Below, one piece after another: positions 15,848-27,123 of a stretch of 27,612 bases of DNA. Within the stretch, counting starts at the first letter, position 1. The number at the start of each line of letters is the position of its first letter. This DNA is from a virus (lineage: Duplodnaviria > Heunggongvirae > Uroviricota > Caudoviricetes). The translations under genes and the position numbers were made by a program. The stretch lies in the IMG/VR virus record IMGVR_UViG_3300039346_000011, one strand, 5' to 3'. The notes beneath the pieces were generated by a model. It was not told the origin of the DNA, did not search any database, and worked only from the letters and a program-made list of their open reading frames with translations.

Positions 15848-16923
15848 ACGATAACGTCACGCTACGGGTAAATGGCCGGGAGTGGAATGGCTGGACATCG
15901 GTGCGCATCGGTGCCGGTATTGAACGGCTGGCGCGGGATTTCAGTGTGGAGATCACCCGCCAGTGGCCGGGTGATGAGGGTATCACCACGCTTCAGCCGC
16001 GCATTAAAAACGGTTCAAAAGTGGAGGTGCTGATTGGTGATGAGCTGGTGATCACCGGCTGGGTGGAGGCGACGCCCGTTCGTTACGATGCCCGTTCGGT
16101 CAGCACCGGTATTGCCGGACGCAGTCTGACCGCTGACCTGATTGACTGTGCAGCCGAACCGACACAGTTTAACGGACGATCGCTGGTACAGATTGCGCAG
16201 GCGCTTGCTGCGCCTTTCGGCATTGAGGTGGTGAACAACGGTGCGCCGTCGGGTGTTATTCCTGACGTCCAGCCCGATCACGGTGAAACGGTGATTGAGG
16301 TAATCAACAAAATACTCGGTCAGCAGCAGGCACTGGCTTACGACGACCCACACGGCAGGCTGGTGATTGGCGGTATTGGCTCAACGCGGGCACATACTGC
16401 GCTGGTACTCGGGGAAAACATCCTTTCCTGCGATACGGAGAAGAGTATCCGGGAGCGGTTTTCTGTTTACCAGGTGGCGGGGCAGCGTGCTGGAAACGAC
16501 GATGATTTCGGTGAGGCCACCACCAGCGCGCTGCGGGCCCGCACAGAGGACGCATTTATTGCCCGTTACCGTCCGATGTATATCAGGCAGACAGGGCAGG
16601 CTACGGGGGCAGGCTGTATTGCGCGTGCTGACTTTGAAGCCCGACAACGGGCGGCGCGGACGGATGAAACCACCTATGTGGTGCAGGGCTGGCGACAGGG
16701 TAACGGTACGCTGTGGCAGCCCAACCAGCGGGTGATTGTCTTCGATCCGGTCTGTGGTTTCGACAATACCGAACTGCTTGTCTCGGAAGTCACGTTTACT
16801 CAGGACCAGAACGGCACCCTGACGGAAATCCGTGTCGGCCCACCTGATGCTTATCTGCCTGAACCCGAAGCCCCCGGCGCGCGGAAAAAGAAAAAAGCCA
16901 GAGTACAGGAGGACCCGTTCTGA
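15844..16923 (+). CDS. Baseplate hub / tail protein (Mu gpP-like)
   Basis: 359 aa; position after the DNA-circulation gene in Mu-like order; translationally coupled. Confidence 0.65.
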   Translation: MNDNVTLRVNGREWNGWTSVRIGAGIERLARDFSVEITRQWPGDEGITTLQPRIKNGSKVEVLIGDELVITGWVEATPVRYDARSVSTGIAGRSLTADLIDCAAEPTQFNGRSLVQIAQALAAPFGIEVVNNGAPSGVIPDVQPDHGETVIEVINKILGQQQALAYDDPHGRLVIGGIGSTRAHTALVLGENILSCDTEKSIRERFSVYQVAGQRAGNDDDFGEATTSALRARTEDAFIARYRPMYIRQTGQATGAGCIARADFEARQRAARTDETTYVVQGWRQGNGTLWQPNQRVIVFDPVCGFDNTELLVSEVTFTQDQNGTLTEIRVGPPDAYLPEPEAPGARKKKKARVQEDPF

Positions 16924-19520: not shown

Positions 19521-20264
19521 ATGCATCGTATAGACACGAAAACCGCGCAGAAGGATAAGTTCGGCGCGGGTAAGAACGGTTTTACCCGTGGTAACCCCCA
19601 GACAGGCACGCCTGCCACCGATCTGGATGATGACTACTTTGACATGTTGCAGGAAGAACTCTGCAGCGTGGTGGAGGCATCCGGTGCCAGTCTGGAGAAG
19701 GCGCGGCACGACCAGCTGCTTACCGCGCTTCGTGCGCTGCTGTTAAGCCGCAAGAATCCGTTTAGCGATATCAAATCGGACGGCACGGTGAAAACGGCTC
19801 TCGAAAACCTTGGTTTGGGAGAAGGCTCTGCATTACCTGTTGGTGTGCCTGTTCCATGGCCTTCAGCCACACCGCCAACAGGCTGGCTGAAATGCAACGG
19901 TGCGGCTTTTTCTGCTGAAGAATACCCGGAACTGGCAAAGGCTTATCCGACAAATAAATTGCCTGATTTACGTGGTGAGTTTATTCGTGGCTGGGATGAT
20001 GGGCGCGGCGTTGATTCAAGGCGTGCGGTGCTGTCAACACAAGAGCCAACTGTAGGTACTTTTTATGTGGAGCTAGCTATCATCTCGGGAACTTTGAGCG
20101 GCTCAGGTGCTAAATTTACCGATTCAGTAGGGATTGGATCAACCAGTAGTAACATTACCGTTAGCAACGGTAATGACCAGTCCGTGTCGGGTACAGTGGC
20201 CGTTAACCCCGTCGATACCCGTCCACGCAACATTGCATTTAACTATATCGTGAGAGCAGCATAA
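19521..20264 (+). CDS. Tail fibre protein with tail-collar-type C-terminus; constant N-terminal part plus currently joined variable C-terminal part
   Basis: 247 aa; [19 protein letters not shown] and C-terminal [15 protein letters not shown] motifs; the left crossover site lies inside at about codon 93. Confidence 0.8.
19798..19823. repeat. Left crossover site of the invertible segment (gix/hix/pix-like)
   Basis: CTCTCGAAAACCTTGGTTTGGGAGAA; its last 14 bp are the exact reverse complement of the first 14 bp of the right site at 21725..21750, with weaker similarity across the remainder; encodes LENLGLGEG in the fibre. Confidence 0.7.
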
Positions 20265-21283: not shown

Positions 21284-21750
21284 TTACCGTCCAATGATTA
21301 ACGCTGAGACGCTGGTATCTGAAGGAAAGGCTGCATTCAGTGGTTTGTCGACTTTGAACACAATCGTATTATTCCCCCTGACAGCGGCAAAAGAACAAAC
21401 CGCCGTCGCGTATGAACCTGTAATATTACTGGATACACCACCATAAGCTGTTGTTGATACCAGAGGGATAACGCCCAGCACCTTATTAGGAAATACAAAG
21501 GGCAATGTGGCTGTGGCAATATAAGACTTATTAGAACCTGTGATGGCATAAGCATTATCAGTCATTCCATTCATCGCCACTGGGCCGCTTATACTTACAG
21601 TAACCATCTGAATGATTAGCCCGTCAGGTTGACGAATCACAAAATTTCCATTGCCACCAGTAACCGTCCAGAAAGACATATCAGGGATTTGGTTTTCCCC
21701 GTTGCCCACATTCCGTTTTGCCGCTTCTCCCAAACCAACGTTTATGAAAA
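21284..21750 (-). CDS. Alternative tail-fibre C-terminal module, silent in this orientation
   Basis: Minus-strand frame open from the right crossover site to 21284 (track ORF 21284..21778); encodes ...GLGEAAKRNVGNG... at the site, paralleling LGLGEGSA in the expressed fibre. Confidence 0.6.
21725..21750. repeat. Right crossover site of the invertible segment
   Basis: TTCTCCCAAACCAACGTTTATGAAAA; resembles the enteric Hin/Gin/Pin site consensus as I recall it and is the inverted partner of 19798..19823. Confidence 0.7.
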
Positions 21751-21804
21751 TGCAGAAATAACGAGCAAATGGCATCATTCCTGCTTTTGTCAGGGAGATC
21801 TACC

Positions 21805-21933
21805 ATGCTTATTGGCTATGTACGTGTGTCAACAAATGACCAGAACACAGATCTACAACGTAATGCGCTGAACTGTGCAGGATGCGAGCTGATTTTTGAA
21901 GACAAGATAAGCGGTACAAAGTCCGAGACCTAG
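21805..21933 (+). pseudogene. pin: Serine DNA invertase (Pin/Gin/Hin family), 42-codon N-terminal stub
   Basis: MLIGYVRVSTNDQNTDLQRNALNCAGCELIFEDKISGTKSET then TAG; matches the Pin/Hin N-terminus including the catalytic-Ser context (YVRVST), but full invertases are about 185-190 aa. Confidence 0.8.
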
Positions 21934-21984
21934 GGCTGACACTGCTGTTCTTGATGCAAATTAAAGTATTTAATAGTGAGTAGC

Positions 21985-22004
21985 GGCCTTACTAATGTAA
22001 GGCC
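21985..22004. terminator. Stem-loop between the pin stub and the convergent nuclease gene
   Basis: GGCCTTAC-TAAT-GTAAGGCC perfect 8-bp stem in an AT-rich spacer; no clean U-run on either strand. Confidence 0.35.
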
Positions 22005-22028
22005 ACTATAATCATTTTATTAATTGCA

Positions 22029-23918
22029 TTAATCGTGTTTTGGCCATACTTTCAATGCAATTTCCCCCAACTTTTTACCCCGCTCCAGGATTTCATCCTC
22101 ATCCCATTTATCCTTAACTATAAGTGGAATGTTCAGTCGTAGATTGGTGTGGACGATGAGAGCATCACGTTTTTTCAGAAATACAGCATTCTGAACAGAA
22201 CGGTTTACGCTAAGGTTAAGCAAAGTTAGATTTCCCAAAGTAGATATCGCTTGTTGCCGTTTCCTTACCAGTAGCTGTTCAGGGGTAAGATCGGTTCCAG
22301 ACAGAACAATTTGGTTCAATACCGTAGCATCTGAATTTGTCACCATACGACCATTTTCGAGAGGCCAACAGGAATACCAACTTTGAGGCATAAGATGATC
22401 GATATCGAGATTAGAAAGATTTGGAACATCAGGCTTTTCTGTCTTTACTTGGCGACAAAGTTCTCTTTCAAGTTCCGTTAACATTGAGCGCATTTTCGGT
22501 GCGTCGAGCCTGCCAGGATAAAGTGGAGCATTGATGCAAGCGTTGAGAAATTCTGAGTCACCAGGCCAACGTGAGGCTTCGCCATTTAAGTTATTGAGGA
22601 TATTACGTAACTCAACACTGGAAATTTCCGTTTTAGCCAAGTGCCGCAATACATTCATAAATACATTGTTGTAATTCTTTGGCGTCAGGCCACATACGGC
22701 TCTTCGTACTACGTAGGAGACAAGATCATTATACATGGCTGCTTTCTCATCATCAGCGATGTTAGCTATCGAAATGAACAAAGCAAGCGGATAAAGTGTC
22801 GTCACATCATAGTCTGCGATGCGATATCCAAAGTGTGAGATGGGGGTTGTGCCAAAACCATCAACCAATTCTTTATATTGTGATGCATATTGTTTGAGGC
22901 GCTTTACTTGCAGATCTGCTCGTTGTGAAGACAAGTCCTTACTTACATAATCACGATACTCATTGTAAAGGCGAGACAGATCAATTTCACGTTGCCTTTC
23001 TGATTGCAATGTCGCATGTACTAGCCACTCCATGCGTGGTTTATTAATACGTCCACGGCGTTGTTTTTCCGACCAGTATTTATCTTCAAAGCTCTTCCAC
23101 TCATTTTCATATAATTCAATAGCATTAATATTTTCATGCTCAGCGCACATAAAGATATAGTTGCGAATAAGATCCGTAGCATGAAGTTCCGCCCCTCGCC
23201 CATTTAATGTTTCAAAAATTATTTGGGCATCATCTTCAGCTTCGAGAAATATGCTTACCAGTTTCAGATCTGTTAAGACAGCCTCAATTAGAGCTACAGC
23301 ATTTTCTTGTGGTGAGTGGTTTTCTATTTTAATCCATTTTATAAAGGCTTCAGTAAAAAAACATAATGCTTCTAGTGATGGCGGGTGATTAAAATGCTTA
23401 CGCAACGTACCATGCTGCGTGAAACTATCAGAGAATACGTCCCGGAGATCGTCAATATTTTCAACATTAAAACTTTGAATAAAATGAGTTTGATCCCGAA
23501 AAGTTGGCCACAGTTTGAAGCGTTCTACTTCTTTATTTCGCATTGTGTCTTCGTTTGAGTTTTTCAGGCAAGGCGAAATGAGAGCCTCTAAGCTGGAAAG
23601 ATCCGTAGCACGTAATGCTAATCGGATGGATGCCAGAACATATTGAAGAGTGGTCAATCGTTGCTGACCATCAATAATATGTATGGAATCTACACCTAAT
23701 AATCCTTTTTTTGATTGAGGTTCCAGTACAACCGCACCAAGGAAATGGGGAGTTGGTTTTGTACCCGAGAGCCGGGATTGTACTTTCTCTAGGATATCCT
23801 CCAGTAGAGCTGACCACTGGTCTTGCTGAGTCCATACATAGGCACGTTGATAGAATGGAACACAGTATTGTCGGCGGTCTTGAAAAAGTTGTTGGACAGT
23901 TAGCGTCTCGGATTTCAT
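22029..23918 (-). CDS. DUF262/DUF1524 two-domain nuclease (GmrSD/BrxU/SspE-like type IV restriction-type protein)
   Basis: Track ORF 22029..23978; likely start is the ATG at 23918 (MKSETLTVQQLF...). N-terminal FYQRAYVW and IIDGQQRLTT (DGQQR) motifs; C-terminal DIDHLMPQSW His-Me-finger-like motif; low GC. Confidence 0.8.
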   Translation of the reverse strand: MKSETLTVQQLFQDRRQYCVPFYQRAYVWTQQDQWSALLEDILEKVQSRLSGTKPTPHFLGAVVLEPQSKKGLLGVDSIHIIDGQQRLTTLQYVLASIRLALRATDLSSLEALISPCLKNSNEDTMRNKEVERFKLWPTFRDQTHFIQSFNVENIDDLRDVFSDSFTQHGTLRKHFNHPPSLEALCFFTEAFIKWIKIENHSPQENAVALIEAVLTDLKLVSIFLEAEDDAQIIFETLNGRGAELHATDLIRNYIFMCAEHENINAIELYENEWKSFEDKYWSEKQRRGRINKPRMEWLVHATLQSERQREIDLSRLYNEYRDYVSKDLSSQRADLQVKRLKQYASQYKELVDGFGTTPISHFGYRIADYDVTTLYPLALFISIANIADDEKAAMYNDLVSYVVRRAVCGLTPKNYNNVFMNVLRHLAKTEISSVELRNILNNLNGEASRWPGDSEFLNACINAPLYPGRLDAPKMRSMLTELERELCRQVKTEKPDVPNLSNLDIDHLMPQSWYSCWPLENGRMVTNSDATVLNQIVLSGTDLTPEQLLVRKRQQAISTLGNLTLLNLSVNRSVQNAVFLKKRDALIVHTNLRLNIPLIVKDKWDEDEILERGKKLGEIALKVWPKHD

Positions 23919-24303
23919 GGTATACCTGTAAGCGACATTGTACAAAAGTGAGGAGTTAATCTGATTTAGAACAATCATTTTATTTTGCTATGATACAACG
24001 TATTTGTTACCGATTAAGTAAAAAACGCGTCTGAACGCTGACGTTTTAGGGCTTTACTGGTTATTCTTTCTTATCTCTTCATCATCCCATCGGCATCCTG
24101 TCGAGGTTGTTGACTTGTTGTTATTTATTTTGTCTAGGCGCTGTTTAATTATTATTGATAGAATTGATGGTGAGAGGTGATTGAAACCGTAGGCACGTCG
24201 TTTGCAAGGACGTGCTACGACTGGCTGGTGAACTTCCGATAGTGCGAGTATTGAATGATTTCCTACGTGCTAACTAGTGAACAAACAACTCTTCAGTAGA
24301 CTC

Positions 24304-24521
24304 TCAGGTATCATTCAGAGTTTCCTGAACGAAAGTTTTAGCTCAATCTTTATCTGCAGTATGTCTAACTGAAAAACTATCGTTGCTGGTGGCTTTTACG
24401 ATCATCTCCACATCGTCATAACGCTTGCCAATGTGTTGGGTTAATTCTTCCTTTAACGCGTCCACAGCGCCGTTTGGCATTTGGTCATTTTGTCTTTGGC
24501 TATGGAGATCTCAATACGCAT
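24304..24521 (-). pseudogene. dinI-like gene remnant with a frameshift and an in-frame TGA
   Basis: Minus strand from ATG at 24521 encodes [14 protein letters not shown], then after a 1-nt shift [37 protein letters not shown]..., then TGA at 24345..24343, then ...FVQETLNDT; colinear with DinI as I recall it. Confidence 0.5.
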
Positions 24522-24534
24522 AACACTTCTTTTG

Positions 24535-24582
24535 TACTGCGTTTGTAGACAGTATTATTCTTATCTGTGTAAATAAACAGTA
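24535..24582. promoter_or_regulatory. Two tandem LexA (SOS) box candidates upstream of the dinI-like remnant
   Basis: TACTGCGTTTGTAGACAGTA (24535-24554; CTGC-N8-ACAG) and ATCTGTGTAAATAAACAGTA (24563-24582; perfect CTGT-N8-ACAG). Confidence 0.5.
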
Positions 24583-24722
24583 TCAAGACTTCGTTTTAGC
24601 TGCATAAGAAAAAAGAGATGGATACATTCGGAAAGATTTTGATGGTGGTAGGCTAAGTGAATAGCCTAAAGGTGTTTTACCCCAATTATTCCCCGGTATT
24701 TCTCCGCATAAAAAACAATCAT

Positions 24723-24747
24723 AAAAAAACCAGCCATAATAGGCTGG
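24723..24747 (-). terminator. Rho-independent terminator immediately 3' of the partial tRNA
   Basis: Plus strand AAAAAAA-CCAGCC-ATAATA-GGCTGG; on the minus strand this is hairpin plus U7, 15 nt after the tRNA CCA end. Confidence 0.6.
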
Positions 24748-24762
24748 TTCTTAAGGGATTTT

Positions 24763-24815
24763 TGGTCGGCACGAGAGGATTTGAACCTCCGCCCCCCGAC
24801 ACCCCATGATGGCGA
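24763..24815 (-). tRNA. Partial tRNA-Pro-like gene (3' portion only: anticodon arm, T-arm, acceptor 3' strand, CCA); probable att remnant
   Basis: Minus strand ...CCATCATGGGGTGTCGGGGGGCGGAGGTTCAAATCCTCTCGTGCCGACCA; 3' ~45 nt closely match enterobacterial tRNA-Pro(GGG) as I recall it; no 5' acceptor strand or D-arm follows. Confidence 0.55.
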
Positions 24816-24918
24816 GCTACGATCTTAAGGGCTGTTATGTGCCAGAAACAGAGATTTTTATATTCCTCACTCTGGAAATCATAATGCTAACTAGTAGGGA
24901 TTATAAGTTGTCAATTGA

Positions 24919-25743
<825 letters not shown>

Positions 25744-25797
25744 TTTCGGAATGGAACTGGATTTCATATTGTGGTCAATTTTCGCACATGATGAGAG

Positions 25798-25822
25798 AGA
25801 GCCCGCGATAGTTGGCTCTTTT
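25798..25822 (+). terminator. Rho-independent terminator after the GIY-YIG gene
   Basis: AGAGCC-CGCGATAGTT-GGCTCT followed by TTTT. Confidence 0.45.
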
Positions 25823-25953
25823 GTGCAAAGTCTGACCAATATTTATTCCCCTCACTGGACGTTACACTCAGACTATCCACTGCTGACATGCCAGTGATTT
25901 AAAAGGAATGCTGCTGATTTAAATAGCGAAAACTTCACTAAAGAGGATGTAAA

Positions 25954-26247
25954 ATGACACTACCCAAGTTCAGGAATGACCTACAAGTTGAAGCTAATTA
26001 CTCTATCAATCAAGCCCGTGAAATGGTTGGGAAAACGGTGAAATCTGTCCAGATTGGTTTTCAGAAAACTGGAGTACAGGTTCATCAGACTGAAATGCTA
26101 ATCATCACGTTTACAGATGACACTCAACTTGCCATCTCAACAGGTTCAAACGTTGTAAACATAACGTCGTTAATTGGGCGTGGTGGCAGTTGCGAGCTTA
26201 AGCCTGCGGATTTTCACGTAGATTTTGATTTGACCTGGCAAAGATGA
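25954..26247 (+). CDS. Hypothetical 97-aa protein
   Basis: AGAGGA SD 7 nt upstream of the ATG; no recognisable motif; followed by a GC-rich inverted repeat. Confidence 0.5.
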   Translation: MTLPKFRNDLQVEANYSINQAREMVGKTVKSVQIGFQKTGVQVHQTEMLIITFTDDTQLAISTGSNVVNITSLIGRGGSCELKPADFHVDFDLTWQR

Positions 26248-26334: not shown

Positions 26335-27123
26335 TCAGAACTGCGCAATAACAACCTTCACTTTTCCTTCCGCGTCTTTAGATTCCAGATCGGTTTTCAC
26401 GCCCAAAGGATTATTTATGTAGCAATCCGGGTCATATACAAACAAGATCAACGTATCGCAGTCTTGGTGAGCGCGGTAGCGCGCCATATCAATAAGCAAC
26501 TCTCCACCAACTTTACCCGCTCCCAGAGATTCACGGGTTTTCTTCACCTCTATCACAATTTTCTCTTTTTTCAAAAGAAAGTCCTGTCTTGAGGCCGCGC
26601 CCGCAAAGCTGGGGGTATACTCTTCCGCCCTAATATCATTAAAATGAAGCGTCAGCAGTGCATAAATCAAATCCTGTACGTCATACTCATCATTAACTTC
26701 AAGCGGCGCACGGCCGTTGTACCGCCTCTTTAACTGGCGAACAAAGGTCGGAAACCTGTTAAGAATATTAAGTACGAGGCTCAGCGGCGAACCTTCTTGA
26801 GGAGTATTAGTACTGACAGCAGAGTGCGCAAGATCATCTCTCGCCGCATCAAACAACGGTTTATAACTTTTGATCAGTGTATTGTAATTAGAAGACCACC
26901 TGCTGTTTACAGTATTGAAGTCATTGTAATAATCAGACTCTTTTCCGTAGCTGTCCTCTATTAACTTTTTCACTCTGGCGATCCAGTTTTTATATTTACC
27001 AGAATCAACATAGGTTTCCATAGTGTGAGTGAGAACGTTCTGCGCAGTATATTTTGTGGAAATGAGCGCATCGTAATCTTTCTCAAGCGCCCTAAATCTT
27101 TCTTCCAGTTGTAGATTTGTCAT
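26335..27123 (-). CDS. Hypothetical protein with C-terminal PD-(D/E)xK-like nuclease motif
   Basis: 262 aa; GGAAGG SD; N-terminal helical region; C-terminal ...EYDVQDLIYALL...RQDFLLKKEKIVIEVKK... has E / D / E-x-K spacing reminiscent of the restriction-endonuclease fold. Low GC. Confidence 0.6.
   Translation of the reverse strand: MTNLQLEERFRALEKDYDALISTKYTAQNVLTHTMETYVDSGKYKNWIARVKKLIEDSYGKESDYYNDFNTVNSRWSSNYNTLIKSYKPLFDAARDDLAHSAVSTNTPQEGSPLSLVLNILNRFPTFVRQLKRRYNGRAPLEVNDEYDVQDLIYALLTLHFNDIRAEEYTPSFAGAASRQDFLLKKEKIVIEVKKTRESLGAGKVGGELLIDMARYRAHQDCDTLILFVYDPDCYINNPLGVKTDLESKDAEGKVKVVIAQF

What the first reader, a model, noticed from the sequence alone, without database searches (positions are those of the whole stretch)
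24304..24582. dinI-like pseudogene that retains tandem LexA boxes
The coding sequence has at least two lesions (1-nt frameshift near 24478 and an in-frame TGA at 24343-24345), yet two CTGT-N8-ACAG-type boxes remain just upstream at 24535-24582. An SOS-responsive promoter may persist and could drive transcription toward leftward genes, including the nuclease gene.
Basis: partly seen in the sequence, partly recalled or inferred. Interest (0 to 1): 0.45.

Follow-up and report, generated by a model that had tools for sequence, protein, structure and literature searches.

The report
Decayed prophage dinI gene, LexA boxes kept
This is an ordinary dead copy of a prophage DNA-damage gene (dinI-like), already flagged as a pseudogene in public E. 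coli annotations; its SOS-type promoter still looks usable, but nothing shows that it drives the neighbouring GmrSD restriction nuclease.

Summary
On the minus strand, 24521→24274 is a DinI-like gene. It is 81-84% identical in DNA to intact dinI genes of lambdoid coliphages. It carries a 1-nt deletion at 24480-24483 and two in-frame TGA codons, at 24345-24343 and 24306-24304.

Two LexA-type boxes overlap a sigma-70-like promoter. Box 1 (24563-24582) scores like real E. coli operators. Box 2 (24535-24554) is degraded to the bottom of the functional range.

The window is 100% identical to E. coli UTI89 and other ST95 strains. RefSeq already labels this locus "DinI-like family protein; frameshifted; internal stop".

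The same promoter with the same frameshift occurs in 250 of 5,426 complete E. coli genomes, next to proL or ssrA, with different cargo genes downstream. No repaired allele was found.

The promoter is conserved because it is linked to the frameshift. Recombination crossovers fall inside the dinI coding sequence, so no selection on the promoter needs to be invoked.

SOS-driven read-through into gmrSD (the known UTI89 "UT" enzyme) is possible but unsupported. A conserved hairpin, a C-rich untranslated stretch and about 640 nt lie between. GmrSD homologues elsewhere have no LexA boxes.

Verdict: ordinary and already known.

The parts
24581..24586 (-). -35 hexamer TTGATA (TTGACA in intact phage homologues)
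   Evidence: Promoter scan; alignments; the promoter annotated in mEp460
24563..24582 (.). LexA box 1, TACTGTTTATTTACACAGAT. It fills the promoter spacer.
   Evidence: 19.6 bits, above the maximum of all 200 shuffles
24557..24562 (-). -10 hexamer AAGAAT (AAAAAT in intact homologues)
24535..24554 (.). LexA box 2, TACTGTCTACAAACGCAGTA. It is degraded by two substitutions relative to TACTGTATACAAACACAGTA and lies over the expected transcription start.
   Evidence: 12.3 bits here against about 22 bits in intact phages
24274..24521 (-). DinI-like pseudogene, from ATG 24521 to the ancestral stop TAG 24276-24274. RefSeq's pseudo-CDS corresponds to 24304-24521.
24480..24483 (-). Site of the 1-nt deletion (A4 to A3), the ancestral frameshift shared by every copy of this lineage that was examined. 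It produces a premature TAA at 24455-24453.
24343..24345 (-). In-frame TGA (TCA, Ser, in intact genes)
24304..24306 (-). Second in-frame TGA (TGG, Trp, in intact genes)
24187..24220 (-). Conserved stem-loop at the end of the dinI module. It is followed by only UUU here and by U5 in phages where dinI is the last gene. It lies in an ~80-nt conserved 3' element (24183-24262) that marks the boundary of the variable cargo.
   Evidence: partial CssrB match on the opposite strand
22029..23918 (-). gmrSD, a single-chain type IV restriction enzyme of 629 aa. This is the 'nuclease gene' of the finding, taken to be UTI89_C2960, the 'UT enzyme'; that locus-tag identity was inferred from size and prophage position, not checked by sequence.
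   Evidence: PMC4437046
24763..24813 (-). 3' 51 nt of tRNA-Pro (proL type) with no 5' half. Together with its terminator at 24752-24725, this is an attP-type relic that travelled with the dinI module.
   Evidence: a complete tRNA-Pro sits in the same relative position in L005-L007 and L014

Best explanation
This is the dead remnant of a DinI-like accessory gene (a 'moron'). It belongs to the attP-proximal end module of a proL-integrating lambdoid prophage. That module is now embedded at the ssrA-proximal end of an SfII/Mu-tail-like prophage of ST95 E. coli.

Shown: the gene was first inactivated by a 1-nt deletion at codon 14. In the UTI89 sub-lineage it then gathered two nonsense codons and many amino-acid replacements.

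Inferred from sequence only: the LexA-operated sigma-70 promoter survives nearly intact. It has one good operator in the spacer and one degraded operator over the transcription start. It therefore probably still fires on DNA damage, giving a short transcript that is barely translated.

Inferred: the promoter is retained through physical linkage, not selection. Exchange of downstream cargo happens by crossovers inside the conserved dinI coding sequence, downstream of the frameshift. As a result, the upstream region, the promoter and the frameshift travel together as one identical block.

Inferred: most transcripts probably end at the conserved hairpin or by Rho-dependent termination in the untranslated C-rich leader. 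Any effect on gmrSD would therefore be minor.
For: Homology and lesions.

Public annotation: the same locus is marked as a pseudogene in UTI89 and in 10 other E. coli genomes whose annotation was fetched.

Spread of the frameshift: a 172-nt query with the deletion repaired matched 250 of 5,426 complete genomes. The best identity was 99.4%. All 38 listed rows that span the deletion site cover one base less of the record than of the query, so no repaired allele exists among them.

Independent later decay: TGA codons at Ser59 and Trp72 occur in UTI89, VE-V11-M and c1-17. A different TGA, at Trp78, occurs in 18KM2445 and TCM_B_2. CFT073, 65COLEC, HCM-28C-2 and 51008369SK1 have no stop at all.

Sharp mosaic: against 65COLEC, HCM-28C-2 and 18KM2445 there are 1-2 substitutions in about 232 nt of upstream region, promoter and 5' CDS, but 23-25 in the remaining 193 nt of CDS. 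The divergent 3' parts match intact phage alleles.

Promoter and operators.

Origin of the module: proL-integrated copies have a complete tRNA-Pro, and ssrA-linked copies keep only its 3' 51 nt.

Barriers before gmrSD.

GmrSD cassettes without LexA boxes.

Precedent that a prophage dinI homologue is dispensable for prophage induction: Lemire et al. 2011, PMC3121763.
Against: - No expression or LexA-binding data were available, so promoter activity and termination are predictions.
- The hairpin has only a UUU tract in this strain, so it may terminate poorly.
- No better sigma-70 match was found for gmrSD in 23918-24180 on the minus strand, so some dependence on upstream transcription cannot be excluded.
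- In 7 diverged copies, the ~110 nt covering the promoter and upstream region have a single polymorphic site. That would also fit purifying selection on the promoter.
- The PWM was built from LexA sites recalled from the literature, so its scores are approximate. As a sanity check, it recovered a box at L004 16073-16092, just upstream of the recN start at 16064.
Confidence: 0.75

Rival explanations
1. Co-opted promoter. After dinI decayed, its LexA-controlled promoter is kept because it gives SOS-inducible expression of whatever cargo sits downstream on the same strand: GmrSD here, and DUF4236, a 315-aa protein or YnaM/YdfK elsewhere. This would be analogous to the Gifsy dinI-antirepressor-irsA operon.
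For: - The next annotated gene downstream of dinI is co-oriented with it in 12 of the 13 fetched loci that have cargo there. The exception is PhiR63_1, where a small opposite-strand ORF lies between dinI and the co-oriented ynaE.
- The promoter and operators are identical in 7 copies whose CDS differs by up to 13%.
- The hairpin's U-tract is short here.
- No good independent sigma-70 match lies upstream of gmrSD.
- LexA-controlled dinI-led operons are documented in Gifsy prophages (PMC3121763).
Against: - The 5' CDS, including the frameshift, is just as identical as the promoter, which fits linkage and mosaic recombination.
- Box 2, the -35 hexamer and the Shine-Dalgarno are degraded relative to intact alleles.
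- GmrSD homologues with the same leader and the same TTTC junction lack the promoter altogether. The short U-tract is therefore not an adaptation to read-through.
- About 540 nt of RNA would be untranslated, with a C>G zone that favours Rho termination.
- A weak hairpin followed by T6 lies at 24047-24018.
Confidence: 0.15
2. The gene is not dead. A functional DinI-like protein is made by recoding (programmed frameshift plus TGA read-through) or from the internal ATG at 24480.
For: - An ATG (Met15 of intact proteins) lies right after the deletion.
- In CFT073-type copies the frame from that ATG stays open to the normal stop.
- The Pfam DinI match to the repaired protein covers residues 16-76.
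Against: - In this window the ATG-24480 ORF is only 45 aa. It lacks the C-terminal acidic helix, because of the TGA at 24345 and a second TGA at 24306.
- There is no slippery heptamer at CC-AAA-UGC and no Shine-Dalgarno before the internal ATG (reading of the sequence).
- Fourteen amino-acid replacements in 55 codons relative to intact alleles indicate relaxed constraint.
- Loss of residues 1-14 removes the N-terminal strand that aligns with 1GHH residues 1-12. That this destabilises the fold is an inference.
- Other sub-lineages carry different stop codons.
Confidence: 0.03
3. The lesions are sequencing or assembly errors, for example a homopolymer miscall.
For: The frameshift lies in a short A-run.
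Against: The identical sequence is found in more than 100 independently sequenced complete genomes. The deletion is shared by the sampled rows of 250 genomes, across diverged alleles and two chromosomal sites. The nonsense codons are substitutions, not indels.
Confidence: 0.01

Closest known systems
DinI-like genes of lambdoid coliphages: mEp460 gp21 ('RecA filament binding protein DinI'), phage cdtI, Lys8385Vzw dinI, PhiR63_1 and many Stx-converting phages
   Same: 81-84% DNA identity over promoter, CDS and 3' hairpin (window 24184-24586). The architecture matches: TTGACA-type -35, two LexA boxes 28 bp apart centre to centre, an 82-codon ORF and a terminal stem-loop. The position also matches, at the att/int-proximal end facing the tail-fibre genes.
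   Different: The phage genes are intact, and both of their boxes score 19-23 bits. Here there is a frameshift plus two stop codons, box 2 is down to 12 bits, and the Shine-Dalgarno and -35 are weakened. This promoter lineage was not found in any of 50,697 deposited phage genomes at megablast level.
Chromosomal DinI of E. coli K-12 (PDB 1GHH/7YWA; NCBIfam NF007893)
   Same: Same family.
   Different: It is a distant paralogue: 52.8 bits against the 111-bit equivalog cut-off. The intact phage gene also fails that cut-off, at 73 bits. From my own knowledge, the chromosomal dinI has a single LexA box. The copy here is non-coding.
LexA-controlled dinI-antirepressor-irsA operons of Salmonella Gifsy-1/-2/-3 prophages (Lemire, Figueroa-Bossi and Bossi 2011, PMC3121763)
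   Same: [quoted passage not shown] In that work, dinI itself was dispensable for induction.
   Different: There is no antirepressor-like or irsA-like ORF after dinI here: no minus-strand ORF of at least 25 aa lies between 23978 and 24343. The next gene is a restriction enzyme about 350 nt away, beyond a hairpin. The location is the prophage end, not the region downstream of the replication genes.
Tum antirepressor of phage 186 and its split versions in PSP3 and Fels-2
   Same: LexA-controlled prophage genes containing a DinI-like sequence (PMC3121763).
   Different: There is no antirepressor moiety here, and the phage type is different. I did not test this by alignment.

Membership tests
DinI family (Pfam PF06183) | Significant match to the family profile | tested here: met
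   The frame-repaired 82-aa translation gives E = 3.2e-11 and 43.8 bits against a 24.2-bit cut-off. The match to 1GHH has E = 2.4e-7.
DinI family (Pfam PF06183) | Uninterrupted reading frame of about 80 codons encoding the N-terminal strand and the C-terminal acidic helix | tested here: not met
   There is a 1-nt deletion at codon 14 and TGA at codons 59 and 72. The longest ORF is 45 aa. RefSeq marks the locus as a pseudogene.
DinI equivalog (NCBIfam NF007893) | Score above the curated equivalog cut-off of 111 bits | tested here: not met
Both are paralogues of chromosomal DinI.
LexA operator (E. coli SOS box) | CTG-N10-CAG palindrome with an AT-rich centre, scoring within the range of experimentally known sites | tested here: met
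   Box 1 scores 19.6 bits (heterology-type index about 7.3), comparable to lexA box 1, cho and uvrD, and above the maximum of 200 shuffles. The PWM was built from sites recalled from the literature.
LexA operator (E. coli SOS box) | Second box of the tandem pair also within the functional range | tested here: inconclusive
   Box 2 scores 12.3 bits (index about 12.2), about equal to the weakest site in the set (polB) and within the range of shuffle maxima. The homologous box in intact phages scores about 22 bits.
LexA operator (E. coli SOS box) | LexA binding, and de-repression on DNA damage | not testable with these tools
   This needs EMSA or ChIP, and expression measured with and without mitomycin C.
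Sigma-70 promoter with overlapping operator | -35 and -10 hexamers at 16-18 nt spacing, with the operator overlapping them | tested here: met
   TTGATA-N18-AAGAAT matches 9 of 12 positions. Box 1 fills the spacer and box 2 starts 3 nt after the -10. The homologous site is annotated as a promoter in mEp460. Such matches are common: 12 were found in the region where 9.3 were expected.
Gifsy-type LexA-controlled dinI-led operon | A small antirepressor gene and irsA directly downstream of dinI | tested here: not met
   There is no minus-strand ORF of at least 25 aa between the dinI remnant and gmrSD. The next gene is GmrSD.
Intrinsic terminator after dinI | GC-rich stem-loop followed by a U-run | tested here: inconclusive
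   The stem is conserved: 12 pairs, 2 of them with compensatory changes, and it forms the main stem of a 106-nt fold with a total free energy of -18 kcal/mol. The tail is only UUUC here, so the site fails the terminator scan. Relatives have U5.

The most novel reading that the evidence does not exclude
The orphaned LexA-operated dinI promoter may be kept as an SOS-inducible driver for interchangeable defence or virulence cargo at prophage ends. The cargo is GmrSD here and DUF4236, NleG or YdfK elsewhere. If so, type IV restriction in ST95 E. coli would be boosted during DNA damage or prophage induction, and the dinI coding sequence would serve mainly as a homology anchor for cargo swapping.
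Probability: 0.12. Interest if true: 0.45.

Novelty: already known. Interest (0 to 1): 0.15.

Why it matters
It matters little in itself. This is a correctly spotted pseudogene that NCBI's annotation pipeline already labels in UTI89 and many other E. coli genomes. LexA-controlled prophage dinI homologues are also documented.

The context has some modest value:
- It shows how a dead gene and its live-looking promoter hitch-hike as one block across at least 250 E. coli genomes and two integration sites (proL and ssrA).
- It shows that the conserved dinI coding sequence and its 3' hairpin act as the left-hand recombination boundary of a variable cargo slot. That slot holds defence genes such as the characterised UTI89 GmrSD.

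If the promoter did feed gmrSD, restriction would be linked to the SOS response, which a simple experiment could test.

Tried and rejected
- ARAGORN found no complete tRNA or tmRNA in the window. The tRNA-Pro-like stretch is only a 3' fragment.
- Rfam with permissive thresholds found no RNA family for the remnant or its 3' element. The only hit was a sub-threshold match to the terminal hairpin of CssrB on the opposite strand (18.4 bits against a gathering score of 76). I rejected it as a family member.
- Programmed frameshift or stop-codon read-through was rejected. There is no slippery site, there are three independent lesions, other sub-lineages carry different stops, and the substitution pattern is relaxed.
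- Sequencing error was rejected.
- Plus-strand features under the finding are only ORFs of 31-32 aa with no support.
- Divergent regulation of the PD-T4-3 gene is unlikely. Its promoter-like sites (24857-24936) are about 300 nt from the boxes, with the tRNA fragment and its terminator in between.
- A search for an intact ancestor of this promoter lineage found none in 5,426 E. coli genomes, none in 50,697 phage records and none in the species-representative genomes.
- A looser tandem-box pattern hit only one representative genome, an E. coli with the intact PhiR63_1-type allele.
- Literature searches for UTI89 locus tags and for SOS data gave only the GmrSD enzymology paper. An ST95 pangenome paper lists a 'DinI-like family protein' group but gives no locus information.
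- The terminator scan found nothing between dinI and gmrSD. Folding showed one conserved hairpin with a short U-tract and one weak hairpin followed by T6.

Full report
**What is in the sequence**

Read on the minus strand, 24586→24522 is a promoter-operator region and 24521→24274 is a DinI-like reading frame. No frame is open across it.
- Frame 1 gives [22 protein letters not shown].
- The frame one base on gives [66 protein letters not shown].

A distant BLASTN search of phage genomes matched window 24184-24586 at 81-84% identity. The matches cover the dinI gene, its promoter and its 3' flank in many lambdoid coliphages: mEp460, cdtI, Lys8385Vzw, PhiR63_1 and Stx-converting phages. In mEp460 the homologous segment is annotated as a promoter followed by 'RecA filament binding protein DinI'.

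**The lesions**

The alignment pins them down.
- One A is missing from an A-run: GACTAAAATGCC in intact genes, GACC-AAATGCC here, at 24480-24483.
- TCA has become TGA at 24345-24343.
- TGG has become TGA at 24306-24304.
- TGG has become TTG at 24288-24286.
- The Shine-Dalgarno GAGGGA has become AAAGAAG.
- Fifteen nucleotides are missing just after the stop.

With the frame repaired, the protein hits Pfam DinI (E = 3.2e-11, above the gathering score). It aligns end to end with E. coli DinI structure 1GHH. It stays far below the NCBIfam equivalog cut-off, as does the intact phage protein, so these are DinI paralogues. Relative to intact alleles, the last 55 codons carry 14 replacements plus the two stops, which points to relaxed constraint.

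**The LexA boxes and promoter**

Box 1 is TACTGTTTATTTACACAGAT (24582-24563). Box 2 is TACTGTCTACAAACGCAGTA (24554-24535). I scored them with a PWM built from 30 E. coli LexA sites recalled from the literature, so the scores are approximate.
- The two boxes are the top two sites in the window.
- Box 1 scores 19.6 bits, above the best score in any of 200 shuffles (18.0). It sits among real operators such as lexA box 1, cho and uvrD.
- Box 2 scores 12.3 bits. That is the level of the weakest known site in the set and within the range of shuffle maxima.
- In intact phages both boxes score 19-23 bits.
- The same PWM picked up a box at L004 16073-16092, just upstream of the recN start at 16064, which serves as a sanity check.

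The consensus scan finds TTGATA-N18-AAGAAT (9 of 12 positions) at 24586-24557. Box 1 fills the spacer and box 2 covers the expected transcription start, which is the classical repression geometry. So the boxes are real and homologous to those of intact relatives, but the second one has decayed.

**Where the window comes from, and what is already known**

The region 21800-25900 is 100% identical to E. coli UTI89, S88, IHE3034, NU14 and other strains. In UTI89's RefSeq record the locus is UTI89_RS14415, 'DinI-like family protein; frameshifted; internal stop'. It is flanked by a DUF262 protein, by a LEM-3-like GIY-YIG protein, and a little further on by ssrA.

The DUF262 protein has GmrSD_N and GmrSD_C domains and matches PADLOC mREase_IV over its full length. 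By size (629 aa) and prophage location next to tail-fibre genes, it corresponds to UTI89_C2960. That is the single-chain 'UT' GmrSD enzyme, described as restricting T2 and T6 and as insensitive to IPI* (PMC4437046). This locus-tag identity is an inference; I did not check it by sequence.

LexA-controlled prophage dinI homologues are also documented. In the Gifsy prophages, dinI is the first gene of a LexA-repressed operon that continues into an antirepressor gene and irsA, and deleting dinI had no effect on induction (PMC3121763).

**Population picture**

Orthologous copies were fetched from other E. coli genomes.
- In VE-V11-M, 65COLEC, HCM-28C-2 and 51008369SK1 the remnant lies about 240 nt downstream of a complete tRNA-Pro (proL). 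It is followed on the same strand by a DUF4236 gene and then by convergent tail-fibre genes.
- In UTI89, c1-17, CFT073, TCM_B_2 and 18KM2445 it lies near ssrA. The downstream cargo is GmrSD, a 315-aa protein, or YnaM/YdfK/Pin.
- In the two ssrA-linked copies aligned across that region (UTI89 and 18KM2445), only the 3' 51 nt of tRNA-Pro and its terminator are kept (24813-24763 and 24752-24725). Homology to the proL loci starts in the anticodon region. That is what an attP copy carried by a proL-integrating phage would look like.

Every copy examined carries the same 1-nt deletion. A 172-nt query in which I repaired the deletion matched 250 of 5,426 complete genomes. The best identity was 99.4%, and all 38 listed rows that span the deletion site cover one base less of the record than of the query, so no repaired allele appears among them. 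The lineage is absent from 50,697 phage records at megablast level and from the species-representative genomes.

Later lesions differ between sub-lineages.
- UTI89, VE-V11-M and c1-17 have TGA at codons 59 and 72.
- 18KM2445 and TCM_B_2 have TGA at codon 78.
- CFT073, 65COLEC, HCM-28C-2 and 51008369SK1 have no stop codon.

The frameshift was therefore the founding lesion, and decay continued independently afterwards.

**Why the promoter is still there**

Across seven copies, the upstream region, promoter, operators and first ~55 nt of the CDS are virtually identical. Against 65COLEC, HCM-28C-2 and 18KM2445 there are 1-2 substitutions in about 232 nt. The rest of the CDS differs by 12-13% (23-25 of 193 sites), and the variant 3' parts equal intact phage alleles.

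That sharp boundary is the signature of crossovers inside the dinI coding sequence. The CDS is the best-conserved stretch shared by different prophage end modules. Crossovers downstream of codon 14 swap the cargo but leave the proL-type attP arm, the promoter and the frameshift linked. This explains the conservation of the boxes without invoking selection.

Between lineages, the promoter region is at least as diverged as the CDS: 25 of 89 sites against 29 of 193, in the comparison with mEp460.

**Does it feed the nuclease gene?**

This can only be argued from sequence.

Points for:
- The next annotated downstream gene is co-oriented with dinI in 12 of the 13 loci that have cargo there. PhiR63_1 is the exception, with a small opposite-strand ORF before the co-oriented ynaE.
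- The hairpin's tail here is only UUUC.
- No sigma-70 site matching 9 of 12 positions was found for gmrSD itself.

Points against:
- The conserved 12-bp stem-loop at 24220-24187 has two compensatory pairs. It carries a U5 tract in phages where dinI is terminal, so it looks like the module's terminator.
- After the premature TAA at 24455, about 540 nt would be untranslated. This includes a zone at 24250-24093 with a C/G ratio up to 2.9, which is rut-like and favours Rho termination (inference).
- A weak hairpin followed by T6 lies at about 24047-24018.
- GmrSD homologues with the same ~280-nt leader and the same TTTC junction occur in PEC165 and strain 3426 with no LexA box and no dinI promoter. 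The enzyme evidently does not depend on this promoter.

I put SOS-driven gmrSD expression at roughly 0.1-0.15.

**Verdict**

The read-through idea is untested and disfavoured. The feature is ordinary and already annotated, so interest is low.

Noticed in passing
window 24970-25743 (+) and 26335-27123 (-): The stretch between the prophage end and ssrA looks like a small defence island. The LEM-3-like GIY-YIG protein is a full-length match to PADLOC PD-T4-3 (E = 7e-137). The 262-aa 'hypothetical protein' has a DpnII/MboI-type REase domain (Pfam E = 9.5e-49) and resembles the REase part of 'Aga helical-REase' models. The 97-aa ORF at 25954-26247 has no match.
   Followed up: partly
window 24763-24813 and 24725-24752 (-): A 51-nt 3' fragment of tRNA-Pro (proL type), with its native-looking terminator, sits at an ssrA-linked locus with no 5' half. 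Homology to true proL loci starts in the anticodon region. It looks like an attP relic of a proL-integrating phage that was carried, together with the dinI module, into a prophage at ssrA.
   Followed up: yes
window 24183-24262 (-); also L009 3501-3592, L010 3499-3590, L011 2505-2597: An ~80-nt conserved element ending in a stem-loop follows dinI. It also occurs without dinI directly upstream of other cargo genes (GmrSD, and a PD-T4-3-like GIY-YIG gene). In some genomes PGAP labels its complement as a fragmentary 'capsid protein'. The complementary strand of the hairpin resembles the 3' hairpin of the Shigella sRNA family CssrB (18.4 bits, far below the gathering score). It may be a module boundary or terminator used in cargo exchange.
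   Followed up: partly
window 19805-19824 and 21724-21743; 21805-21927 (+): A 20-nt inverted repeat (AAACCTTGGTTTGGGAGAAG, 95% complementary) brackets the tail-fibre and tail-fibre-assembly gene pairs, like the crossover sites of a Pin/Gin-type invertible segment. The adjacent recombinase is reduced to a 41-codon N-terminal fragment with a Resolvase domain, which is annotated as a pseudogene. The host-range switch is therefore probably frozen. The truncation abuts the gmrSD cassette.
   Followed up: partly
window 23918-23978 (-): The gmrSD ORF extends 20 codons upstream of the annotated start, to an ATG at 23978 (649 aa against 629 aa). The PADLOC model covers residues 1-629 of the shorter form exactly, which supports the annotated start.
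   Followed up: partly
window 1001-2000; ORF 1650-2153 (-): There is a GC dip to 37% within the otherwise 53-58% GC phage late region. It lies between the Rz-like lysis gene and an HNH endonuclease/terminase cluster. It contains an opposite-strand 167-aa ORF with no Pfam match, possibly another accessory (moron) insertion.
   Followed up: no
L002 2347-3060 (phage Lys8385Vzw): In this O103 phage, the gene after an intact LexA-boxed dinI, on the same strand, encodes an NleG type III effector (Pfam E = 5e-48). The slot downstream of dinI therefore carries virulence cargo as well as defence cargo.
   Followed up: no
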